Positions 19,301 to 59,300 of a stretch of DNA of 64,000 nucleotides are shown piece after piece. How positions within the stretch are numbered: the first letter of the stretch is position 1; every line of letters starts with the position of its first letter. The DNA is from Octopus sinensis (taxonomy: Eukaryota). The notes under the pieces are model-generated. The model was not told the DNA's origin. It saw nothing but the letters and a program-made list of their open reading frames with translations, and made no database searches. The stretch lies in NCBI RefSeq assembly GCF_006345805.1, contig NC_043006.1, positions 23,560,001 to 23,624,000 of the forward strand, written 5' to 3'. The translations under genes and the position numbers were made by a program.

Positions 19301-22300
19301 GGGATTTTGACCTTTAAATTCGGAGGAAAAAATGTGGATTATACTCGAGGATTTACGGTATAAATACAAAACAACACCACGGAGGAATCAGCGTAAGCTT
19401 AAATAATAAATCGCGATAGGTGAACCGCGATATGGCGAAGGATTACTCTGTGTGTGTGTGTGTGTGTATGTGCATATATATATATATATATATATACACA
19501 TCATCATTGTTTAATGTCCGTTTTCCATGCTGGCATGGGTTGGACGGTTCGACTGGGGTCTGGGGAGCCAGGAGGCTGCACCAGGCTCCAATCTGATCTC
19601 TCAGTGTTTCTACAGTTGGATGCCTTCCTAACACCAACCACTCCAAGAGTGTAGTGAGTGCTTTTTACATGCCACCGGTACAGGATCCAGAGGGGGGCTG
19701 GCAACAACCACGATTGGTTGGTGCTTTCCATGCTGGCATGGGTTGGACAGTTTAACTGGAGCTGATAAACCAGAAGCCTGCACCAAGCTCAACTGTCAAT
19801 TTTAACATGGTTTCTACAGATGGGTGCCCTTCTTAACACAAATCACTTTACAGGGTGTACTGGGTGCTTTTTAGATGACACCAGCACCAGAGAGGCCACC
19901 AAGTACCTCATAAGACAAGACCCCCTCGACTGATGGGGCAGAGTAATGAAGAAAAGGGCTTTGTGCCAGGTGATGAGAGGGACAGAAACAATTTGCAATA
20001 TTTTATGTCCTAATTGCTGTTCTAACGTACATGTAGCACAACTCTCAGGTAGTATTGTTCGCAGCACACACAACTCTTGCTTTCCATTGTACTAAGCACT
20101 CTTGTTAGCTCTCATTTTATGCTTGAACAGACTTTAGTGTGATTTTTTAACCCTAAGAAGACATCTCCTCTAGCTGGTTAACATTGCATAGCTGTATCCG
20201 ATATATTGTGGGCCGAGGAATCGAACCCCTATCACATTCTAGCAAAGGGACCAACACACAGTAATTCAAACAACTATCATTACAACAACGTAAGGTTTGG
20301 TGTAAGTTCAACATGGAACTAACACATTGACTCTTACCGACCTCTCAACGACTCCTACTAACCTCTTATCTCAACCAATATGTGGCTACTCTTTATAAGA
20401 GTTTGGCTAGTCCAGTCTTCCAATCCCTCAAGGCTGTCGATGGCTCTTGCCACAACACAATAAATAAGGGAAACAAAATAAAAAAAAAAACACATTGAAG
20501 AGGAAAAAGGAGCATTGTAGGGAACAGCTGGAATGAAGGTGGTGTGTAATGGGGGCCACCTACCGTGAGATTGCTACGATGACCCTTGCTGCACTTCGGA
20601 ACCTGGCCAAAGGATGACATCGGTTGTGTTGGCCCTGGTTGTATGAATCCCCTAACAACCTATTGTCATGACCCCTAGCATTCATCCGTGACAGAAGAGC
20701 AAGGACAGTCTGCTCACTGTCCTGGAAACCACCCAGCAGCACCAACAGATAGTTCTTTTGGTAAATCAGTGCCTTACGGAAGCTCTCGGCTCTAAAGTAC
20801 TTCCTGAACAAAGTCTGGATCTGAAAGCAGAAACAAAAAGTAGACTTAAGAAGTGGGGGAAAATACTGACAGATGCGGATAACAACAGGAGTAATAATAA
20901 TAATAATATTAATAATAATAATAATAATAATAATAATTTCTACTCTAGGCACAAGGCCTTGAATATTTGGGGGGAAGGGGACTAGTCGATTACATCGACC
21001 CCAATGTGTATCTGGTACTTATTTAATTGATCCTGAAAGGATGAATGGCAAAGTCAACCTCAGCTGAATTTGAACTCAGGACGTAGCGGCAGACGAAATA
21101 CTGCTAAGCATTTCGCTCGGCGTGCTAACGATTCTGCCAAATAATAATAGGGATAATATATTGCGTGGTTGGGGTAAAATACTAAGTGATAGAAAAAATA
21201 AGGAAAACCGTTGGAAGAAAGAATATTGGCAAATTAACCGTTTAGCATTTAAACCAACCATGTCCAGCTCAAATATTCCTGTTTTATGTTTAAACTGACC
21301 AGATCCAGTCACTCACACCTACAAGAGTGGCTAGGCAGAGGTGTAGCTGTGTGCTGGGAAGTTTGCTTCCCAACTATATGGTTCCAGGTTCAATCCCACT
21401 GGATGACACCTTGGACGGGTTTCTTCTACTATAGACTTAAGCTGACCAAAATCTTTTGGGTGGATTTGGCAGACAGAAACTGAAAGAAGCCTATTGGTGT
21501 GTGTGTGCTTGTTCTTCACCATCACCTAGCAACCAGTGTTGGTACGTTTACATTCTTATAACTTAGCAGTTCAGCAAAAGGACTGATGGGGATCGAGTCA
21601 TTCAACTAAAATTCTTCAAAGCGGTGCCCCAGCTTGGCCACAGTCTACTCATTGAAACAAGTAAAAGATAAAAAACAATTACCAAATCTGATTCCATCAA
21701 CATTGGGTTGTTGTTGTTGGTGGTGGTGTTGATATTTGGACTTGTGGTGGTGGTGGAGGTGGTGTTGTTATTGGAGAGGGCGAAACCTTGGGTTCGTTCA
21801 ATTCTCAAGTTCCGTTGGAGTTGTTCGATCCGCTTCTCACAGTTTTGCAGGGCTAGTTCATAGGTAGCCCTCTCCTGGTCCCATCGGATCCGCTCCATGG
21901 TGAATGAGGTCTCTAGCAACGAGTCGCCATCACCATCAGAATTTTGGGTCTTTAAGGAAGACACGGAAGAGAAGAGATGAGTCACTGACACACACACACT
22001 GACACATACATAATACATATACAAAACCCAACACATATGTAACACACACAAAATTTAGAACGTGTGTGTATAATAATAGAGGCTAAAACTTTTTTTTTAA
22101 TTCTATCAGTGGCCAGCATATAAAAGGGAACCTATTAAAGTAAAATTATATGTATAATTATAATAAGGGCTTAGAAGAGAAATTTTCTAGCCTATATGCT
22201 GAGAAATAGACACTAAATCATGGTGAGACAATTTAGCATCTATTTCTCAGAATAAAAACTAGAAAATTTCTTTTCTAAGCTCTTATTATAATTATATATA

Positions 22301-35680: not shown

Positions 35681-38600
35681 TTGTGTGTGTGCATGTACAC
35701 TTGTTTACGTAGTATTAATAAGCATTAATTGTAGGTGATACATACATATACATACACACACAAACATACATTACTCTAATAGATATTAATTCTTGATGAG
35801 ATGTGTGTGCACATGCATGCGTGTGTTTATATATATATATATATAATACAAATAAGAAAACTGAGAAACAATTTAGTTTGCTCATCAACTTTCAGATATT
35901 AGAATGTTGAATTATTTATTCATTAACAAAATGAGAACCTCAATAGCATACATATATACCTTATAATTCAATACATACAAGATAAGAATACAAATTATAA
36001 AAATCATAATATAAATTATTGAAATCATTAAACTCACTTCTTACAGCTGTTTCAGCCTATGGTTTTAAGTAGTTTTTAAAAATTTTTATTGCCTATAGGT
36101 GTCAACATACTTAGGTTGTAGGCATTTAAAAATAGGGTACTTATATATATAACCATAGGCCTATGGTTATATATATAAGTACTCTATTTTTAAATGCCTA
36201 CAACTTCAATATAATTGACAACTATAGGCAATAAAAATTTTTTTTAAATACTTTCAACCATAGGCTGAAACAGCTGTAAGAAGTGAGTTTAATGATTTCA
36301 ATAATTTATATTATGATTTTTATAATTTGTATTCCTATCTTATATGTATTGAATTATAAGGTATATATGTATGCTATTGAGGTTCTCATTTTGTTAAATG
36401 AATAAATATTTCAACATTCTAATATCTGAAAGTTGATGAGCAAACTAAATTGTTTCTCAGTTTTCTTATTTGTATTATAAATTAACGGTAAAATATTTCT
36501 TTACCGTAACCCGTTTAATACAATAAATAAGTTAATTGCATTGCAATTAAAAACATTTATGTATTAAGAATTTGGGTACTTTACCAACAGTATATTGGAT
36601 AAATACTATCCCTTAGTGGGTTGGATCCATACCCCTAACTTACTTTGTGTCATATATATATATGCACGCGCACACACACACATTGCAAAAAAAGAAACAG
36701 CATCAATGTCACATATTCACAGAAAGCAACACTGTCAATGACAATGCTAGCAACAACAAAAACAATAGCAACTATATCAAGTGCAACAATGTGCAAGATC
36801 TCCATTGCAGTGTGCAAATAACTGGGTTAATGTTTGCATCACAACCATTGCAGAGATGGATGCAGTCTATGTGAATAATGATGTGCGCACATACATACCC
36901 AAATACACACTTATATACACACACACACACTTACATATACACATTGTGCGTGCGCACACACACACACACACACACACATACATGTGTGTAGATGGGTTCA
37001 GGACTAGATGCTTTCCAAACTTAAAACCAGTTTGACTCTGCTCCACATAAAGTTTCAGATTTGAGGACAACTTCAAGACAGGTTGTAGGTGCTAAGCCTC
37101 TATGGGTCAGCTCAGGTCATATATTAAAGCTGTGAAAGCAACCCCAGCTATTTTCTTTACTTTCAGGCCCACATGTTCAGATTGAAAGTTGGCATCATTT
37201 CTGGTACCTGCTTGAGGCATACTGTGTTCAGTGATGTCAGTTCATTGTGGCGGGTACCACACATGGAAGGGTAGGATGTTGGAACAAGTTAGTAACCCAG
37301 TCACTGCTCAGTATAACATTAATCCTTTCAATACCAACTTAGCAGAAACTACCTCTGGCTCTGTATAACAAATGTCTTGTTTTCTGAAGTTTTGAATTAA
37401 AATCTTCCACGAAACTTAAGTCACAATTTATGTCCCAAACACTAGCTTAATAATAACTAAGTTATTTGAGTAAATTCTTTGTTATATTTGAAATTAATTG
37501 AAAGAAATATGGGGTATTTCAACAGAAATACGGTAACGAAAGGGTCAATACATTAATATCATCAGTCTTTATGTAGGAGCAACCAAATTTGATGGTGTCA
37601 GGTAAAAATGAAGTTTGATGACCAATATGAGGGGTCTGCAGTCTATATATATCTAGCCCAAATATTCTGCCTGTTTTATATTCAAATTGGCCAAATTCAG
37701 CCTCTCACACCTACCCTACAATGTTATTCAAAAACTAAACAATCACTTGATCAAAATCCCAAAGCTACAAGATAATCCATAATTAATTCAAAACAATGTG
37801 AAAAAATTAGCATTACATTTGACAGAATAATCTGAATGCTAAAGGGTTAAACACCCTGTCCTTGTGTAAGGGACAGCTAGGCCTAGGGTAGTATATTTGG
37901 ATTATCAGCTGTCAGTGGCATGAAGTTCATTAACAGAGAATTCCTTTGATGGTAACAATAAGACAGGTCACTTTTCAATTTGGCTATTCTCACAAAGTCA
38001 GTGGCCACTGCTAATATATTTATGTTCCAATAAACACCACCTGAGTTTTTGTCACATACCAACATCCAACCTGAAGATGATTGATACCCAATAAAACAAC
38101 CTAATTAGTGAATACATTATACCACAGTCTCTACCATCAAAGTGACCCCCAACATCCTAATTCAACCCTATCCAAGCATGTGGGCCTAAAAATAAAGAAA
38201 ATAGCTGGCATTGCCCTCACAGGCCTAACACCTACAAGCCATCTTGAATTTGTCTCAAATCTGTCACTCTTTTCCTGGCATCTGATGAGACGGACTTGTC
38301 CTATGCACCTAAGCAACTTTACACCATCTGGAGCTAAGTCAAAATGTTATTAATATTTACATGTAATACCTAGCAAATATGTTCAATAAAATATGAAAAA
38401 ACAGCATAAAAAAGCTCTAGTGGCAATGAGGACAACAACCGTAGCAACAGCAACATCAGCAGTGTTGTTTACGCTACAGCTGGGAATGAGGTGAGTGCTG
38501 GTGAAGTGAATTCTGATTGCAATAATAGCAGCAGTAGCAGCAATGTATTCAAACTCTGGTAAAATGCTATAAAGAAGTGCGATTCGATCAACCTCAGTGT

Positions 38601-39214: not shown

Positions 39215-42200
39215 TTCAAATTTTGACACAAGGCCAGCAATTTCTGGAGGCATTTGAACTCAAAACGTAAAGACAGACAAAATGCAGCTAATCATTTTGC
39301 CCAGCATGTTAACGACTCTGCCAGCTTGCTGTCTTATATAACAAAAATAATCATCATCATCATCATTTAACGTCCGCTTTCCATGCTAGCATGGGTTGGA
39401 CGGTTCAACTGGGGTCTGGGGAGCCCGAAAGCTGCACCAGTCCAGTCAGATCTGGCAGTGTTTCTACAGCTGGATGCCCTTCCTAACGCCAACCACTCCG
39501 AGAGTGTAGTGGGTGATTTTATGTGCCACCGACACAGGTGCCAGACGAGGCTGGCAAACGGCCACACTCGGATGGTGTTTTTTATGTGCCACCGACACAG
39601 GTGCCAGACGAGGCTGGCAGACGGCCACGCTCGGATGGTGTTTTTATGTGCCACCGACACAGGTGCCAGATGAGGCTGGCAAACGGCCACAATCGGATGG
39701 TGTTTGTTACGTGCCCACAGCACGGAGGCCAGTCGATGCGGTACTGGCTACGGCCACGTTCGGATGGTTTTCTTGTGTGCCACGTGCCACCGGCACTGGT
39801 ACCACAAAGATACAAATTCCATTGATGTTCATCTATTTTGATTTGTTTTGATTTTCACTTGCCTCAACAGGTCTTCGGTCTTCACAAGTGTCACAAGAAG
39901 GAAGGTATGCACAGGTGGACTGACTACGTCCCAGGTAGGGGCCACAGGTTATGGCCTGACTAGTCTTGCCGGGTCTTCGGATGGTGTTTTTATGTGCCAC
40001 CGACACAGGTGCTGGATGAGGCTGGCGAACGGCCACGATCGGATGGTGTTTGTTACGTGCCCACAGCACGGAGGCCAGTCGGTGCGGTACTGGCTACGGC
40101 CACGTTCGGATGGTTTTCTTGTGTGCCACCGGCACTGGTACCACAAAGATACAATTCCATTAATGTTCATCTATTTTGATTTGTTTTGATTTGATTTGAT
40201 TTGATTTGTTTTGATTTCATTTTGATTTTCACTTGCCTCAACAGGCCTTCACAAGTATCACAAGGAGGAAGGTATGCACAGGTGGACTGACTACGTCCCA
40301 GGTAGGGGCCATGGGATATGGCCTGACTAGTCTTGCGGGTCTTCGGATGGTGTTTTTATGTGCCACCGACACAGGTGCTGGATGAGGCTGGCGAACGGCC
40401 ACGATCGGATGGTGTTTGTTACGTGCCCACAGCACGGAGGCCAGTCGGTGCGGTACTGGCTACGGCCACGTTCGGATGGTTTTCTTGTGTGCCACCGGCA
40501 CTGGTACCACAAAGATACAATTCCATTAATGTTCATCTATTTTGATTTGTTTTGATTTGATTTGATTTGATTTGTTTTGATTTCATTTTGATTTTCACTT
40601 GCCTCAACAGGCCTTCACAAGTATCACAAGGAGGAAGGTATGCACAGGTGGACTGACTACGTCCCAGGTAGGGGCCATGGGATATGGCCTGACTAGTCTT
40701 GCCGGGTCTTCGGATGGTGTTTTTATGTGCCACCGACACAGGTGCTAGATGAGGCTGGCGAACGGCCACAATCGGATGGTGTTTGTTATGTGCCCACAGC
40801 ACGATGGCCAGTCGATGCGGTACTGACTACGGCCACGTTCGGATGGATTTCTTGTGTGCCACAGGCACTGGTACCACAAAGATACAAATTCCATTGATGT
40901 TCATCTATTTTGATTTGATTTGATTTTCACTTGCCTCAACAGGTCTTCACAAGTGTCACAAGAAGGAAGGTATGCACAGGTGGACTGACTAGTCTTGCCG
41001 GGTCTTCGGAAGGTGTTTTTATGTGCCACCAACACAGGTGCCAGATGAGGCTGGCGAACGGCCATGATCGGATGGTGTTTGTTACGTGCCCACAGCATGG
41101 AGGCCGGTCGATGCGGAACTGGCTACGGCCACGTTCGGATGGTTCTCTTGTGTGCCACCGGCACTGGTACCACAAAGATACAGATTCCATTGATGTTCAT
41201 CTATTTTGATTTGTTTTGATTTTGATTTTGATTTTGATTTATAATAATAATAATAATAATAATAATCATAATAATAATAATCCTTTCTGCTATAGGCACA
41301 GGGCCTGAAATATTAAGGGCAGGAACTAATTGATTACATCGACCCCCAGTGTTTCACTGGTACTTAATTTATCGACCCCGAAAGGATGAAAGGCAAAGTT
41401 GACCCTGACGAAATTTGAACTCAGAACATAGCGACAGGTGAAATACCGCTAAGCATTTTGTCCAGAGTACTAACGATTCTGCCAGCTCGCTGCCTTAATA
41501 ATAACAACAACAATAGTAGTTTCAAATTTTGGCACAGGGCCAGCAGTTTTTGAGGGGAAGGGCCAAGTCAATGACTTGAACACCAGGTGCTTAACTTCAT
41601 TGTCCCAAAGAGGATGAAAGGCAAAGCTGGTCAAGATAGGAGTTGAACTCAGAACATAAACTGTTGGAGGAAACGGTACTAAGCATTTTTTTCTCAACAT
41701 GTTAAAGTTTACCAATTCTGCTACCTCACTGCTTTGATAATAATAATTATTTCTACTGCAAGTGCAAAGCCAGAAATTTGGGAGGGTAGTCAATTATATC
41801 AACCCCAGTGCATAACTGGTACTTCTTTCATCAACCCTGAACGGATGAATGGAAAAGTCTGATATCAGAATGTAATATTTGGAATGGTGTCATCTTGATT
41901 GTTCTTTTCTACTCTAGACACAAGGCTCGAAAATTTTGGGGGAGGGGGCCAGTCGATTAGATCGACCCCAGTATGCAACTGGTACTTAATTTATCGACCC
42001 CAAAAGGATGAAAGGCAAAGTCAACCTCAGCGGAATTTGAACTCAGAAGATAAAGACAGATGAAATAGCGCAAAGTATTTCACCCAGCATTCTAACGTTT
42101 CTGCCAGCTCGCTGCCTTGCCATCTTGATTGTTGCTTGCAGTACTTTTCAACAGGGTTCATTCCCGCCTTCTTCAGGTGTCTTGAGATTCACCACTCTAA

Positions 42201-50200: not shown

Positions 50201-53200
50201 AGTCAAGTACCATAAATCATGACTGTTTTGGGCAGTTACACTTGGGACGGTTTGATCTGGTCGCGCCCCTCAAAAAGTCTAAGCTAAGAGCATTAGACCC
50301 CTTAGTAAGAAAGCTAGCGAATGTGCATGGCAACAAAGACCAAAACTGGAGGACATGATACACAATTACGAATACAAACAACAAACAAATAACAACAAGT
50401 GTCTTTCGACTAAGAATGAATCCAATTGAGCTGGCATGTATGAAGTGAAAGCCTAAAGGCAGGAACATAGGAGGTATTGGCGGTCGGCAGTTGGACCAAG
50501 AAAGAAAGATCATGGCTGGCCAGGCACTGGTCATGTGGAACAGAATCGAGTGCTTTTGGCGCTAAATCATGATACCAAGTTAACTGGCATCCCTTCTTGC
50601 AATTTGGCATTCTTTCTTCGAGTCCTTATTCATTTAGTCTTTTTTCAACCATGTCTGTAAAAATTTAGTGTTAATTCTTGTGGCTTCGGAATGTTCATGA
50701 CCCCTATTTTTAGCTAAGCTGGGGCTTTTTAATACCCTGATTTTATATATATTTTTATATATATATCTATTAATTTTGCCAATATGGTTTTATACTTGTG
50801 GCCACCACTAATAATCTCTTCTGAGTAATAATGTTCTTTACACACACACACACACAAAAAACGGGGCTTCTTTCAATTTTCATCCACCAAATCCACTCAC
50901 AAGGCTTTGGTCAGCCTGGATCTGTAGCTGAAGACACTTGCCCAAGGTACCGTGCTGTGGGACTGAACCTGAAACCATGTGGCTGGAAAACAAACTTCTT
51001 ACCATACTGTCACCCCAGCCATTGCAGAAAAGAAGACTGAGTAGAGGGAGTTAATTAAATAGGCTGTTGTGGGGTAAGGCCTTATAGGAACAAGAAGAGA
51101 AGGCAGGACATGTGAAACAGGTGGTCAATCAATGACGGTAACAGCATCAGAATATGACAATATCAGGGCTATTATGTGGTCATATTATCCAATGAGATAC
51201 ATCCACCATGTGGGCATTGTGGTCAATGAGAGAACTTTTATGTGGTCATTCCAGCTAATAACAGGTCCTCTGGATGGTTATTCTAGCCAATGACAAAAGC
51301 TCTATGTAGGTCCCAGCCAGTAAGAGAACCACTACAGCCAAATATAAAGCTTCTGTGTCATCACACTAGCCTGAGAAAACCTGTATGTGGGTTCTAACCC
51401 AGGAGAAAACCACTAAGCTTACCCTAACATATGAAAGCATCAGTGAAGGAATGTCTACAAGATCACACAAGCTGCTAGAAATAGCAACCCCTAATGATCT
51501 ATAAACAGGAGGAACAGAATGAATAATGTAGTTCCAGATACACATGTCTGAAAGATTGCTGTAAAACTTTTGATCATAAGATCTGACCTAGGCCTAAACA
51601 AATGACAGGAAAAAAAACAAAAAAACTCACCCAATCAGGTGTTGCTAGTTGCTGTTCTTGGGCCAAAAGTTCTTTGAGGGCCTGAATAGCAGACAACAGT
51701 GTCTGTCGTTCTTTCTCCCAGGCTGTACGCAGAGCCTCAATGTCGATGTTTCTAGCAGTAGGTTTTGGTGTGGTGTGGTATCGAATGAACTGTAGTTCAG
51801 ACAGCGTCAGTGTTTGAATACCCTCTTTCTGAATACGGCTTAATAACACCTTCAAGAACACAAAGGAAAAAAAAAGAAAGAATTGGGCTTTAAAAGCAAT
51901 ATATGTATTAGAGTGGGTTTTATTGCAGAACAGCATAAATGGTGGAAAAATCACAGCAAAACAGCTTGCATATATAATATCACGTTATGTCTCTTTATAT
52001 TCCTCAAGTTCAAATCCTAACAAGCTAAACTAAGCATTTTGTCCTTGTGTAGGGATGTGAGGACCAATCAAAGAAATATAAGTCAAACATGAATAGAAAA
52101 CGGTTTTCTATAGCTGATGAGCTGCGCTTGAGAAGACCTGTTGAGTCAAGTAAAATCAAAACCAAAAGCAAATCAAGATCAAAATCAAAATGGAAATTGT
52201 GATCGATGCCAGTGCCGCCTGACTGGCACCCATGCTGGTGGCATGTAAAAAGCACCATTCAAGTGTGGGTTGGTGCCAGTGCCGCCTGACTGGCACCCAT
52301 GCTGGTGGCATGTAAAAAGCACCATTCAAGTGTGGGTTGGTGCCAGTGCCGCCTGACTGGCACCCATGCTGGTGGCATGTAAAAAGCACCATTCAAGTGT
52401 GGGTTGGTGCCAGTGCCGCCTGACTGGCACCCATGCTGGTGGCATGTAAAAAGCACCATTCAAGTGTGGGTTGGTGCCAGTGCCGCCTGACTGGCACCCA
52501 TGCTGGTGGCATGTAAAAAGCACCATTCAAGTGTGGGTTGGTGCCAGTGCCGCCTGACTGGCACCCATGCTGGTGGCATGTAAAAAGCACCATTCAAGTG
52601 TGGGTTGGTGCCAGTGCCGCCTGACTGGCACCCATGCTGGTGGCATGTAAAAAGCACCATTCAAGTGTGGGTTGGTGCCAGTGCCGCCTGACTGGCACCC
52701 ATGCTGGTGGCATGTAAAAAGCACCATTCAAGTGTGGGTTGGTGCCAGTGCCGCCTGACTGGCTCCCCATGCCGGTGGTACATAAAAAACATCATCCGAA
52801 TGTGGTTGATGCCGTGCCGCCTGACTAGCTCCCCATGCCGATGGCACGTAAATACCATTTTTGGAGTGGTTAGCTTTGGGAAGGGCATCCAACTGTAGAA
52901 ACCTTGCCAGATCAGACTAAAGCCTGGTGCGGCCTCCTGGCTTGCCAGCCCAAGGTCAAACCATCCAACCCATGCCAGCAAGGAAAATGGATGTTAAACA
53001 ATGATGATGATGATGATGATAGCTCTTCCTTCAAATTTATGCTCCTCAAAACAAAATCTATATCATGAAGATTATCTTTTGCTAGTTCAGTCATTGGACT
53101 AGCCATGCTGGAGCACCACCTCAAAGGGGTTTTAATTGAAAACCCTGTGTTTTTTTTTTTGGGGGGGGGGGTTGGCCAAGGGAATCATGTACTTATTCTA

Positions 53201-56320: not shown

Positions 56321-59300
56321 ACATACAAAGAAGGTGAGTTGGGTGACACCATTGAGTGCTGGATAGAATACCTTGTGGTGTTTGTTCTCACTGTCAGTGC
56401 CCTAAGTTCAACTTAGCTTTCCATCCTTGAAGGGTTCAATAAAAAGTATCACATGAGGAAGGTAGGGCCACAGCAGCAGCTTACTTGTTTTAGTCATTAG
56501 ACTGTGGCCATACTGGAGCACTGCCTTGAAGAAGTTTCAGTTAAATGAATCAACTCCAGTACTTATTGTGTCAGTTTCTTTTGCCTAACTGCTAAGTTAT
56601 GGGGGTATAAACACACCAGCATTGGTTGTCAAGCGGTGGTGAGGAACAAACACAGACACATTATTACACACATACACATGCGCACACATATGTGTACACA
56701 CACACACACACATATATGACATGCTTCATTTCAGTTTCCATCAACCAAATCCACTAACAAGGCTTTGGTCGGTCCAAGGCCATAATATAAGTCACTTGCC
56801 CAAGGTGATATGCAGTGGCATTGAACCCAGAATCATGTGGTTGGGGAGCAAACTTCTTACCATGTCCTCCTGCACCTGTGAGGACCATTTCTCACCAACA
56901 TTTTTTTTGCTTTTAAATAATATTAGCAAAACATGGATTTTCATATAATAACAAATAATGGAAAAAAACTGGAAATTCCACCAACCCATGATAGGGAAAA
57001 AATGCAGGGTTGGGGAAATAAGCCAAAATATGGATAAATATGATGGTTAGTAAATAAATAAAATAAAATAAAATAAAATAAAAACAAGAAACAAAGACAA
57101 TCCTCACATTTTCTGTCTGTTTGGCTCATGGGTGATGATCTCGACAGTTCTTGTAGCATTTCATCAGATCGTACTCTTGTCTGTTGGTTATCAGACATCT
57201 TTTCCAGTATTCCAGTCTGCTGAGTTGCTTTATCTTGACACAGTTGCTCCAGAATGGTACGCATCGATAGCAGCTCATTGTATACCTGTTTGATGTGACC
57301 GATGACCCTCTCTTGTGAGATGGTGCTACTTTCGTCTGCCGATGTACCACTCGTGTCCAAATTCTTTTCCTCCAGCTGCCCTATGCGTAGCTGAAGCAAG
57401 GATCTTGTTTTCTCAAGTTCTGACTCAAGACGGTGGACAAGAGTTTCTGGTAGCTGCAAGAATTTAGTGAAAAAGAAAAAAAAATGGGAGATTTTTTAAT
57501 GGCAAACCTGAGATAATGAACGAATGTTGGTGAAGATGCTGTACTTTAAATGCCAAAGCCTACACTCAATTGCATGACCTACACTCAGTATAAGTCCCTC
57601 TTCAGTAGCATAGATCACCTTTAGTGACTAGTTCAATATCACAACCTACACTCAATGTCAATCTATACTCGATGTCATACCATCAATGACAGAACTCTCA
57701 ATGTCACACCGTCAATGACAGAACACTCTCAATGTCTTGCCATCAATGACAGAACACTCTCAATGTCACATAACTCAATGTCACAGCCTACAAGCTATGG
57801 CATTAGGTTGTGCCAAGGTTAAGTGGAAGACAGCTACCCAAAATACCATTCAATGGAACTGAACTTAAAACCAAGAGGTAGCAAAGCTAGTTCCTTAACC
57901 ACACAGCCTCAGTACTCTAAATGCAGAGGTTCACTATCAAGGTCACTTCCTGATTCCCACTTTCACAACATTAAACACCACAGATGGTTATTCTCTTGAT
58001 ATTTGATGTATCAGAACACCAGTTTCTCTCCCCCAATCTACAACAATAGCATAACAGAAAATATAAGCAAATGAGTCTCTTACCTGAGGTTTCATATTGG
58101 CTGTCTCAGCACTTTTGATTGTGTCCTCAGACAGAGATTTCTCTTGATGCACAGCTTTACTACTTGAACTGTCTGTCAGATCCTCATCAAAAGAATTGTG
58201 ATGTTGGCATATACGAGTCATCTCCTGAGCCCTATTAACCAGCTGAACTTGCGTGTCCATCAGGTGATCTCGGACGGTCTGCAGTTCCGTCTCTTTACTG
58301 ACCAGCTGTTTCTGTAAGTCGTCCACCTCACTGCGAAGCACCACAATTCGGCCCTCGGCCTTTGTGGCTTCGATCTGCTCTTCACCAAGCAATGTGTGGT
58401 ACTCCAGTTTTGAGCTGTGATATGACGATGCGGACTTCTCAAGCTGCTGCTGCAGCTGTTGTAGCATGCTGTCCTTTATCTGCAGCTCATTCTCGTAGCT
58501 CACAATCTTTGCCTCCTTCGACTCAATGTCAACTTGTGATGCTTCCAGCTTTCCGAGCAGTATGTTGATTTGCTCGGAAAGCTGGCCACCATCCTCTGCA
58601 GTCTGCAAGCTCGAGACCTGAATCTCAGCTTCCTGGGAGTGCACCTTTTGATTAGCCTCAACCAGCTCCATCTCCAGACGCTCCACATCGCTCTCTCTCT
58701 TCTGGATTTCCTGCCACAGGTCCGTGAACTTTGATTGGATTACCTGCGTGTCTTCCAGAGACTGAAGGTTGCTAGGTTTCAGCTCTTCAGACTCCAATTT
58801 AAACAGCTTCTTCTTCAAATCGTCAATGTGATTATCATTCACCAGCTTCATCTCCCACGCCTCTTGCAATTCCGTTTGCAGCTGCTCGCATTTGCTCTGC
58901 AACTGATCGGATTTCTTCTTTTCTATGTCAACAGACAGGCGTAATTGACTAAGCTGCGTGTTTCGTTCCTGCAGTTCTGTCCGTAGGTTCTCAATTTCTT
59001 TAGACTTTTCTTCAGCCACACGCTGGGAAGTTTCTAGATCTGACTGCAACTGGTTAAGAAGAAGGAAAAGAAAAGATTTTTAAATAAAAAAATTTAAAAG
59101 ACAGCAAAAAATAACTCCAATACATTATCAATTAACTGCTGAGACTTAAATGTAATCAATATCAATCATGAGCTGCATCAGGTTCCATTGTCTGTAGAAA
59201 ACAAACCAAAAGAGGAAATGAACCCTGGTGCAGCTCCCCAGCCTTGCCAGCCCCTCTCAAACCATTCAACCCATGCCAGCATGAAAAACAGACATTAAAT

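What the first reader, a model, noticed from the sequence alone, without database searches (positions are those of the whole stretch)
35843..36479. 640-bp palindrome-of-hairpins built from the 3' half of a hammerhead-like motif: possible PLE-derived fold-back element class
Seen: a spacer-less palindrome next to (TA)n. Each arm is itself a hairpin closed by GCCTATGGTT/AACCATAGGC and followed directly by TGAAAC-AGCT-GTA. Known: PLE minimal hammerheads end in helix II-GAAAC-palindromic loop-GUH, and PLE insertions often carry inverted pLTR copies. Inference: the symmetry axis lies exactly where CUGANGA would be. This suggests the element arose by cDNA fold-back at ribozyme helix II, giving a non-autonomous, dsRNA-forming retro-derived palindrome rather than a DNA MITE. 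It would form about 300 bp of dsRNA in the pre-mRNA. This is the best candidate for an undescribed system in the window.
Basis: partly seen in the sequence, partly recalled or inferred. Interest (0 to 1): 0.72.

Follow-up and report, generated by a model that had tools for sequence, protein, structure and literature searches.

The report
Mirror-image stump of a Penelope retrotransposon
The palindrome is real, but it is one copy of the cut-short, back-to-back end that Penelope-type jumping genes are known to leave; it was likely made when two DNA copies of the element's RNA end were joined inside a ribozyme-shaped motif, so it is ordinary in kind and not a new class of element.

Summary
The palindrome is real (302 of 319 columns pair; axis 36159|36160 in AGG|CCT). 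The insertion is larger than reported: about 35846-36652, with a ~176-bp tail on the right arm and (TA)n on both sides. The 'new element class' reading fails. The junction occurs once in the genome, junctions of other copies are scattered, and inverted copy plus tail with a palindromic junction is published PLE architecture. In two families, 72 of 76 head-to-head pairs join one arm ending at a fixed site E1 to one ending at a second site E2; none is E1/E1 or E2/E2. Fourteen of the 72 have arms that do not overlap, so they cannot be self-copies. This favours two priming events over fold-back at helix II, though fold-back at AGGCCT is not excluded for this copy. A pile-up of 5' ends at the predicted ribozyme cut did not replicate. 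The scan reported this layout before on other DNA, including the two-primer reading.

The parts
35828..35845 (.). (TA)n target tract, left flank
   Evidence: sequence; (TA)n follows the 3' ends of nearly all family arms
35846..36162 (-). Left arm: 5'-truncated PLE terminal repeat copy ending at the family's inner fixed 3' end E1 (TTTGTAT then TA), no tail
   Evidence: 72 of 156 arms end at E1
36157..36162 (.). Head-to-head junction in the 6-bp self-complementary AGGCCT (A9 of the hammerhead core plus the start of helix II); axis 36159|36160; junction 24-mer unique in the genome
   Evidence: contig across the axis in 2 of 4 runs
36157..36475 (+). Right arm, part mirrored by the left arm
36158..36266 (+). 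Long helix II of the hammerhead motif (GGCCTATGGTT ... AACCATAGGCT; G10.1 pairs with U instead of C); mirror copy at about 36054-36161 on the minus strand
36267..36278 (+). GAAAC-AGCT-GTA: 3' core, palindromic loop III and predicted cleavage triplet; non-functional here by inference because C3-G8 are missing; mirror 36042-36053
36476..36652 (+). Tail of about 176 bp on the right arm only, ending at the outer fixed 3' end E2; 74% like the tail of the intact sister element L090
   Evidence: (71 of 156 arms end at E2)
36652..36663 (.). (TA)n target tract, right flank; no target-site duplication can be told apart from it

Best explanation
This is a single ~810-bp insertion of two 5'-truncated ends of a Hydra-type Penelope-like retrotransposon joined head to head in a (TA)n tract, likely made when both cut ends of the target primed reverse transcription at two fixed RNA sites and the two cDNAs were joined through AGGCCT at the base of hammerhead helix II. 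Shown: family membership, the intact motif and ORF linkage in relatives, two fixed 3' ends ~176 nt apart, one of each in every fully classed pair, and the uniqueness of this junction. Inferred: nicking of (TA)n by the element's endonuclease, priming from both strands, both cDNAs stopping at one point (a template end or a stall), and joining by the 6-bp microhomology. The copy encodes nothing and has lost the CUGANG core on both arms, so it would not self-cleave. It likely lies in an intron of a PACT-domain gene, where the transcript would fold into ~300 bp of dsRNA (untested). Identity about 0.95; two-primer route for this copy about 0.55.
For: Arm is a dispersed repeat: 1394 candidates, 40 scored. 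CTGANGA upstream in 21 of 27 loci; 97 exact matches. L040: endonuclease-type ORF end, 3' UTR and arm (92% to the window) on one strand. L094: RT, endonuclease, sense arm and inverted copy in one locus. L076 (95% to the L040 endonuclease DNA) has RWK, DKT, CxCX5C, CxxC and CxH in broken frames, the Hydra features of PMC8557442 section 11. Sister element L090 has an intact 960-codon open frame between direct repeats, an inverted copy and a 179-bp tail, and resembles the Hydra alignment in the paper's supplement by eye. Of 35 adjacent head-to-head pairs in 127 loci plus the window, 31 are E1/E2, 4 have one arm ending elsewhere, none is E1/E1 or E2/E2; 41 of 41 in the sister family are E1/E2. In 10 of 31 (counted from the list; one, L077, may be a nested insertion) and 4 of 41 the tail arm starts at or beyond E1, so neither arm can be a copy of the other. 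In vitro a PLE cuts and extends both strands and starts at two RNA sites that bound the tail (PMC11167929).
Against: Symmetric junctions are in excess: 10 of 31 within 15 nt (3.5 expected, p=4e-4) and 7 of 41 within 2 nt (0.49 expected; 4 of 36 outside one hot zone, p=1e-4). Fold-back predicts this directly; the two-primer model needs both cDNAs to stop at the same place. The window's arms share variants rare in the family (one in 0 of 53 others, one in 1 of 126), so they come from one source or were homogenised later. Pfam gave no RT or GIY-YIG hit, PDB none, and no hammerhead family was among the 150 listed of 191 Rfam matches, so the assignments rest on motifs and linkage. No intact ORF of this exact family was found among the loci fetched. 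No tree was built.
Confidence: 0.85

Rival explanations
1. Same element, but this copy arose by self-priming: one cDNA started at E2, folded back at AGGCCT, copied itself and was resolved at E1.
For: Exactly symmetric axis in a short palindrome. Excess of exact symmetric junctions, some at TA, TTAA or GGCC; two of the seven in the sister family lie inside its helix II. Arms share private variants. The tail arm contains everything in the short arm, so the geometry allows it.
Against: It cannot explain the pairs whose arms do not overlap (10 of 31, 4 of 41) or whose E1 arm is more than 15 nt longer than the tail arm (14 of 31 counted; 16 of 41). A loop-less 6-bp snap-back is sterically poor (established knowledge). 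Pairing of helix II itself would give one central hairpin; none was seen.
Confidence: 0.35
2. A new class of non-autonomous, ribozyme-derived palindromic element that moves as a unit.
For: A third, unrelated hammerhead family also has a spacer-less palindrome centred on GGCC early in its helix II (L176).
Against: Junction 24-mer found once; a looser 16-mer finds only the window and L176, which has no similarity to this family's reference copy. Of 31 E1/E2 junctions only the window has both arms ending in helix II.
Confidence: 0.03
3. DNA transposon MITE or foldback element with long terminal inverted repeats.
For: Long inverted arms in TA context.
Against: The outer ends differ by a 176-bp tail, inner ends are variably truncated, many copies are single arms, and they link to RT ORFs.
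Confidence: 0.01
4. Assembly artefact from a fold-back read.
For: No listed contig spans the whole stretch; the crossing piece has only 15 letters on one side; 2 of 4 runs lack it.
Against: 17 differences between arms, different outer ends, junction-specific contig at depth 71-80 in two runs, and the same layout at dozens of loci.
Confidence: 0.02

Closest known systems
Insertion units of EN+ Penelope-like elements: 5'-truncated copy, adjacent inverted copy, tail at one end (PMC8557442 passages and section 11; PMC3846280 passages and Discussion)
   Same: Head-to-head inverted copies, overlap or palindrome at the junction, tail on one arm, (TA)n target with no clear duplication.
   Different: The tail is 176-179 bp against the 30-40 bp stated in these papers. 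This copy is so short that no ORF and only part of the hammerhead remain.
Hydra clade of C-terminal EN+ PLEs, e.g. Hydra-1_Obim (PMC8557442 section 11 and supplement rows and alignment passages)
   Same: RWK, DKT, CxCX5C linker, CxxC and CxH motifs, hammerhead, (TA)n insertion.
   Different: A different family from Hydra-1_Obim: other hammerhead sequence, N-rich stretch between RT and endonuclease, long microsatellite-rich 3' UTR, intact unit above 5 kb in the sister family against under 3 kb reported.
Minimal hammerheads in PLE terminal repeats (PMC4209133, parts 1-2 of 4 read)
   Same: CUGANGA, long helix II, GAAA, small palindromic helix III, short helix I; pairs on opposite strands 100-700 bp apart are mentioned there.
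   Different: Helix II is ~108 nt long and closes with G-U at 10.1/11.1 in the aligned copies. In the window both cores are destroyed.
Non-LTR retrozymes (bioRxiv 10.64898/2026.07.22.740005, part 1 of 5 read)
   Same: Non-coding, hammerhead-bearing derivatives of PLE terminal repeats.
   Different: Retrozymes are head-to-tail repeats with intact ribozymes that spread as units; this is a single head-to-head stump.

Membership tests
EN+ Penelope-like elements | One ORF with RT and C-terminal GIY-YIG endonuclease linked to the terminal repeat | tested here: met
   Not in the window (no tblastn hit). In family copies L040, L094, L076 (broken) and intact in sister L090. By motif and paper alignment; Pfam and PDB gave no hit.
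EN+ Penelope-like elements | Hammerhead motif in the pseudo-LTR | tested here: met
   21 of 27 loci; 97 exact matches; fold z=-3.3 for one intact copy. No Rfam hammerhead among 150 listed of 191 matches; little covariation, 3 of 37 pairs.
EN+ Penelope-like elements | Variable 5' truncation with an adjacent inverted copy | tested here: met
   35 head-to-head pairs with scattered junctions
EN+ Penelope-like elements | [quoted passage not shown] | tested here: met
   E1 +197 and E2 +373 from the predicted cut; 176 nt, longer than the published 30-40
EN+ Penelope-like elements | Direct repeat - ORF - direct repeat tandem | tested here: inconclusive
   Seen in sister L090; not found for this exact family among fetched loci; the 3.1-kb tandem L032 held no such ORF.
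Hydra clade | RWK and DKT motifs in RT | tested here: met
   RWK and DKT in L076, DKT in L094, RWR and DKT in L090
Hydra clade | CxCX5C linker, CxxC and CxH around the endonuclease end | tested here: met
   L040, L076, L090
Hydra clade | Insertion into (TA)n | tested here: met
   Window flanks and most 3' flanks
Hydra clade | Grouping in an RT phylogeny | not tested
   Only a by-eye comparison with supplement passages
Active hammerhead ribozyme | Self-cleavage after GUA | not testable with these tools
   Core C3-G8 absent in the window; cleavage of intact copies untested
MITE / foldback DNA transposon | Equal fixed termini, transposon-type duplication, multiple identical units | tested here: not met
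Non-LTR retrozyme | Head-to-tail units with complete hammerheads | tested here: not met

The most novel reading that the evidence does not exclude
Hydra-type PLEs insert by priming both target strands at two fixed RNA sites ~176 nt apart, so every inverted copy is a second cDNA and not a fold-back. The excess of exactly symmetric junctions would then mark places where both cDNAs stop on one RNA, including the long hammerhead helix II. The genome would hold a countable record that decides between self-priming and two-primer insertion.
Probability: 0.5. Interest if true: 0.45.

Novelty: new member of a known kind. Interest (0 to 1): 0.2.

Why it matters
The locus itself is a dead stump of a known layout. 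Its value is as one data point on an open question: how PLEs make inverted copies and tails. The strict E1/E2 pairing and the non-overlapping arms fit the in vitro result of two start sites and both-strand extension better than self-priming alone. Five paper searches found no genomic count of this kind, but the library lacks most subscription papers and earlier notes of this scan reached the same reading. If intronic, such stumps are a source of long dsRNA in host transcripts.

Tried and rejected
5' ends piling up at the predicted ribozyme cut: 18 of 47 arms at risk ended in -19..+20 (9.4 expected), but this was seen post hoc, scan p=0.054, arms are not independent, and the pre-set test in the sister family gave 2 of 86; not claimed. 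L032, with two motifs 3.1 kb apart, was a local duplication and not a full-length element. Long ORFs near L036, L039 and L078 looked like other retroelements and were not used. My first recalled label, Nematis, was dropped after reading the Hydra features. Pfam, PDB and Rfam added nothing. No RNA holder was listed, so expression, editing and siRNAs are untested. The first read-laying was swamped by family copies; no empty-site allele could be told. A twin of the hairpin just past E1 was not seen past the E2-equivalent of L090 (one element only). Rows dropped before counts: duplicate loci, loci L046-L075 and four sister-family loci; hits under 45 nt or ending before arm position 200; three duplicate loci. 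Pattern searches list only the first 100 of 263 and 244 matches, so samples come mostly from contigs C1-C10; family-1 pairs also include loci picked for long arms or ORFs. 5' ends at -360 are censored by the reference. Sequence and place look-ups of earlier findings were blank.

Full report
Observation. The palindrome is in the sequence: 302 of 319 columns pair, with no spacer, and the axis is 36159|36160. Each arm has the helix-closing decamers followed by T-GAAAC-AGCT-GTA, and no CTGANGA lies in 35701-36600. The true insertion is about 35846-36652: the right arm continues ~176 bp as family sequence to a second (TA)n. A 53-nt contig identical to 36145-36197 crosses the axis in 2 of 4 runs, at depth 71-80 against 42-52 for unique flanks. 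It falls short of the tool's bridging bar and the runs may not be independent, but together with 17 arm differences it makes a chimeric read unlikely.

Family. One arm finds 1394 candidates in the 2.7-Gb genome (earlier notes call the animal an octopus, which I did not check). In 21 of 27 distinct loci CTGANGA stands directly before the arm, and CTGANGAGGCCTATGGTTA occurs 97 times with 0 for the control. The intact motif is CUGANGA, a ~108-nt helix II closed by G-U, GAAAC, palindromic AGCU and GUA, with a short helix I. That matches the minimal PLE hammerheads of PMC4209133 (parts 1-2 of 4 read). Covariation is slight (3 of 37 pairs), and no hammerhead family was among the listed Rfam matches. 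In the window both arms start at A9, so the core is lost.

Coding link. L040 carries the end of an endonuclease-type ORF, a microsatellite-rich UTR and the arm on one strand. L094 holds RT, endonuclease, sense arm and inverted copy. L076, 95% like the L040 endonuclease DNA, shows RWK, DKT, CxCX5C, CxxC and CxH in broken frames. A sister element, L090, has an intact 960-codon open frame between direct repeats, an inverted copy and a tail 74% like the window's. These are the Hydra-clade features listed in PMC8557442 (section 11; supplement rows and alignment passages, compared by eye). Pfam and PDB gave no hit and no tree was built, so the clade call rests on motifs.

Is it a class of its own? 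No. The junction 24-mer occurs once. A looser 16-mer adds one locus from an unrelated hammerhead family. Among 127 loci plus the window, arms end at two fixed sites (72 at E1, 71 at E2, 13 elsewhere) and 35 adjacent head-to-head pairs have scattered junctions; only the window has both arms ending in helix II. Inverted truncated copies, a one-sided tail and palindromes at the junction are described in PMC8557442 (passages) and PMC3846280 (passages and Discussion).

Mechanism. 31 of 35 pairs here and 41 of 41 in the sister family join an E1 arm to an E2 arm, never like to like. In 10 of 31 and 4 of 41 the arms do not overlap, so they are not copies of each other. PMC11167929 (parts 1-2 of 4 read) shows a PLE cutting and extending both strands and starting at two RNA sites that bound the tail. 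I infer two priming events and joining by microhomology, here AGGCCT. Against this, symmetric junctions are in excess (10 of 31 within 15 nt, p=4e-4; 7 of 41 within 2 nt, 0.49 expected), which fold-back predicts, and the window's arms share rare variants. For this copy I put two primers at about 0.55 and fold-back at AGGCCT at about 0.35. Fold-back by helix II pairing would leave one central hairpin; the window has two, and no fetched locus has one. A pile-up of 5' ends at the predicted cut site (18 of 47) had scan p=0.054 and failed in the sister family (2 of 86). Alignment ends in this AT-rich DNA are uncertain by a few bases.

Host context. A PACT-domain frame (20563-21018) and a coiled-coil frame (57991-59079) lie on the minus strand on either side (148 of 307 candidate frames scanned), so an intronic position is likely but no gene model was built. 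The palindrome folds into 299 pairs as RNA. No RNA holder was listed.

Verdict. A new member of a known kind, interest 0.2. The family-level counts are the only part with some value. Five paper searches found no such count; the last two and the octopus search were judged from listings only. The retrozyme preprint was read in part 1 of 5 and its supplements are closed; supplements of the other papers, except PMC8557442, were not opened and may hold tail lengths or junction data. Earlier notes of this scan describe the same layout and the two-primer idea; they are leads, not support.

Noticed in passing
L176:710-2794 (G000:C5:85568303): A different hammerhead-bearing repeat forms a 1.6-kb spacer-less palindrome centred on GGCC early in its helix II, with ~486-bp head-to-tail units in each arm.
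   Followed up: partly
L090 family, about 575 nt upstream of the predicted cut (L227, L229, L243, L245, L251, L267): Many 5' ends fall at -570 to -576, two of them exactly symmetric junctions; could be an RNA start, a short derivative or a subfamily boundary.
   Followed up: no
window 35846-36475: Arm differences cluster near the axis (12 of ~105 against 5 of ~214), while rare variants shared by both arms lie in the outer part; this fits later arm-to-arm conversion of the outer arms.
   Followed up: partly
window 36486-36508: Small hairpin about 10 nt past E1, also present past the E1-equivalent of L090; no clear twin past E2 in L090.
   Followed up: partly
window 20563-21018 and 57991-59079, minus strand: PACT-domain and coiled-coil frames, likely exons of a pericentrin/AKAP9-like gene spanning the finding (gene name is recalled from the Pfam description).
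   Followed up: no
L090, L091 and other places: Young sister PLE family with intact 960-codon frames at two or more loci and copies 95-100% alike; a candidate for in vitro work.
   Followed up: partly
L038:5437-6339 and L042:4743-5657: Intron-less caspase-like open frames of ~300 codons within a few kb of family copies in duplicated segments; label by eye from the translation.
   Followed up: no
window 39510-41223 and 52207-52852: Tandem arrays with periods 63, 296-366 and 67 bp.
   Followed up: no
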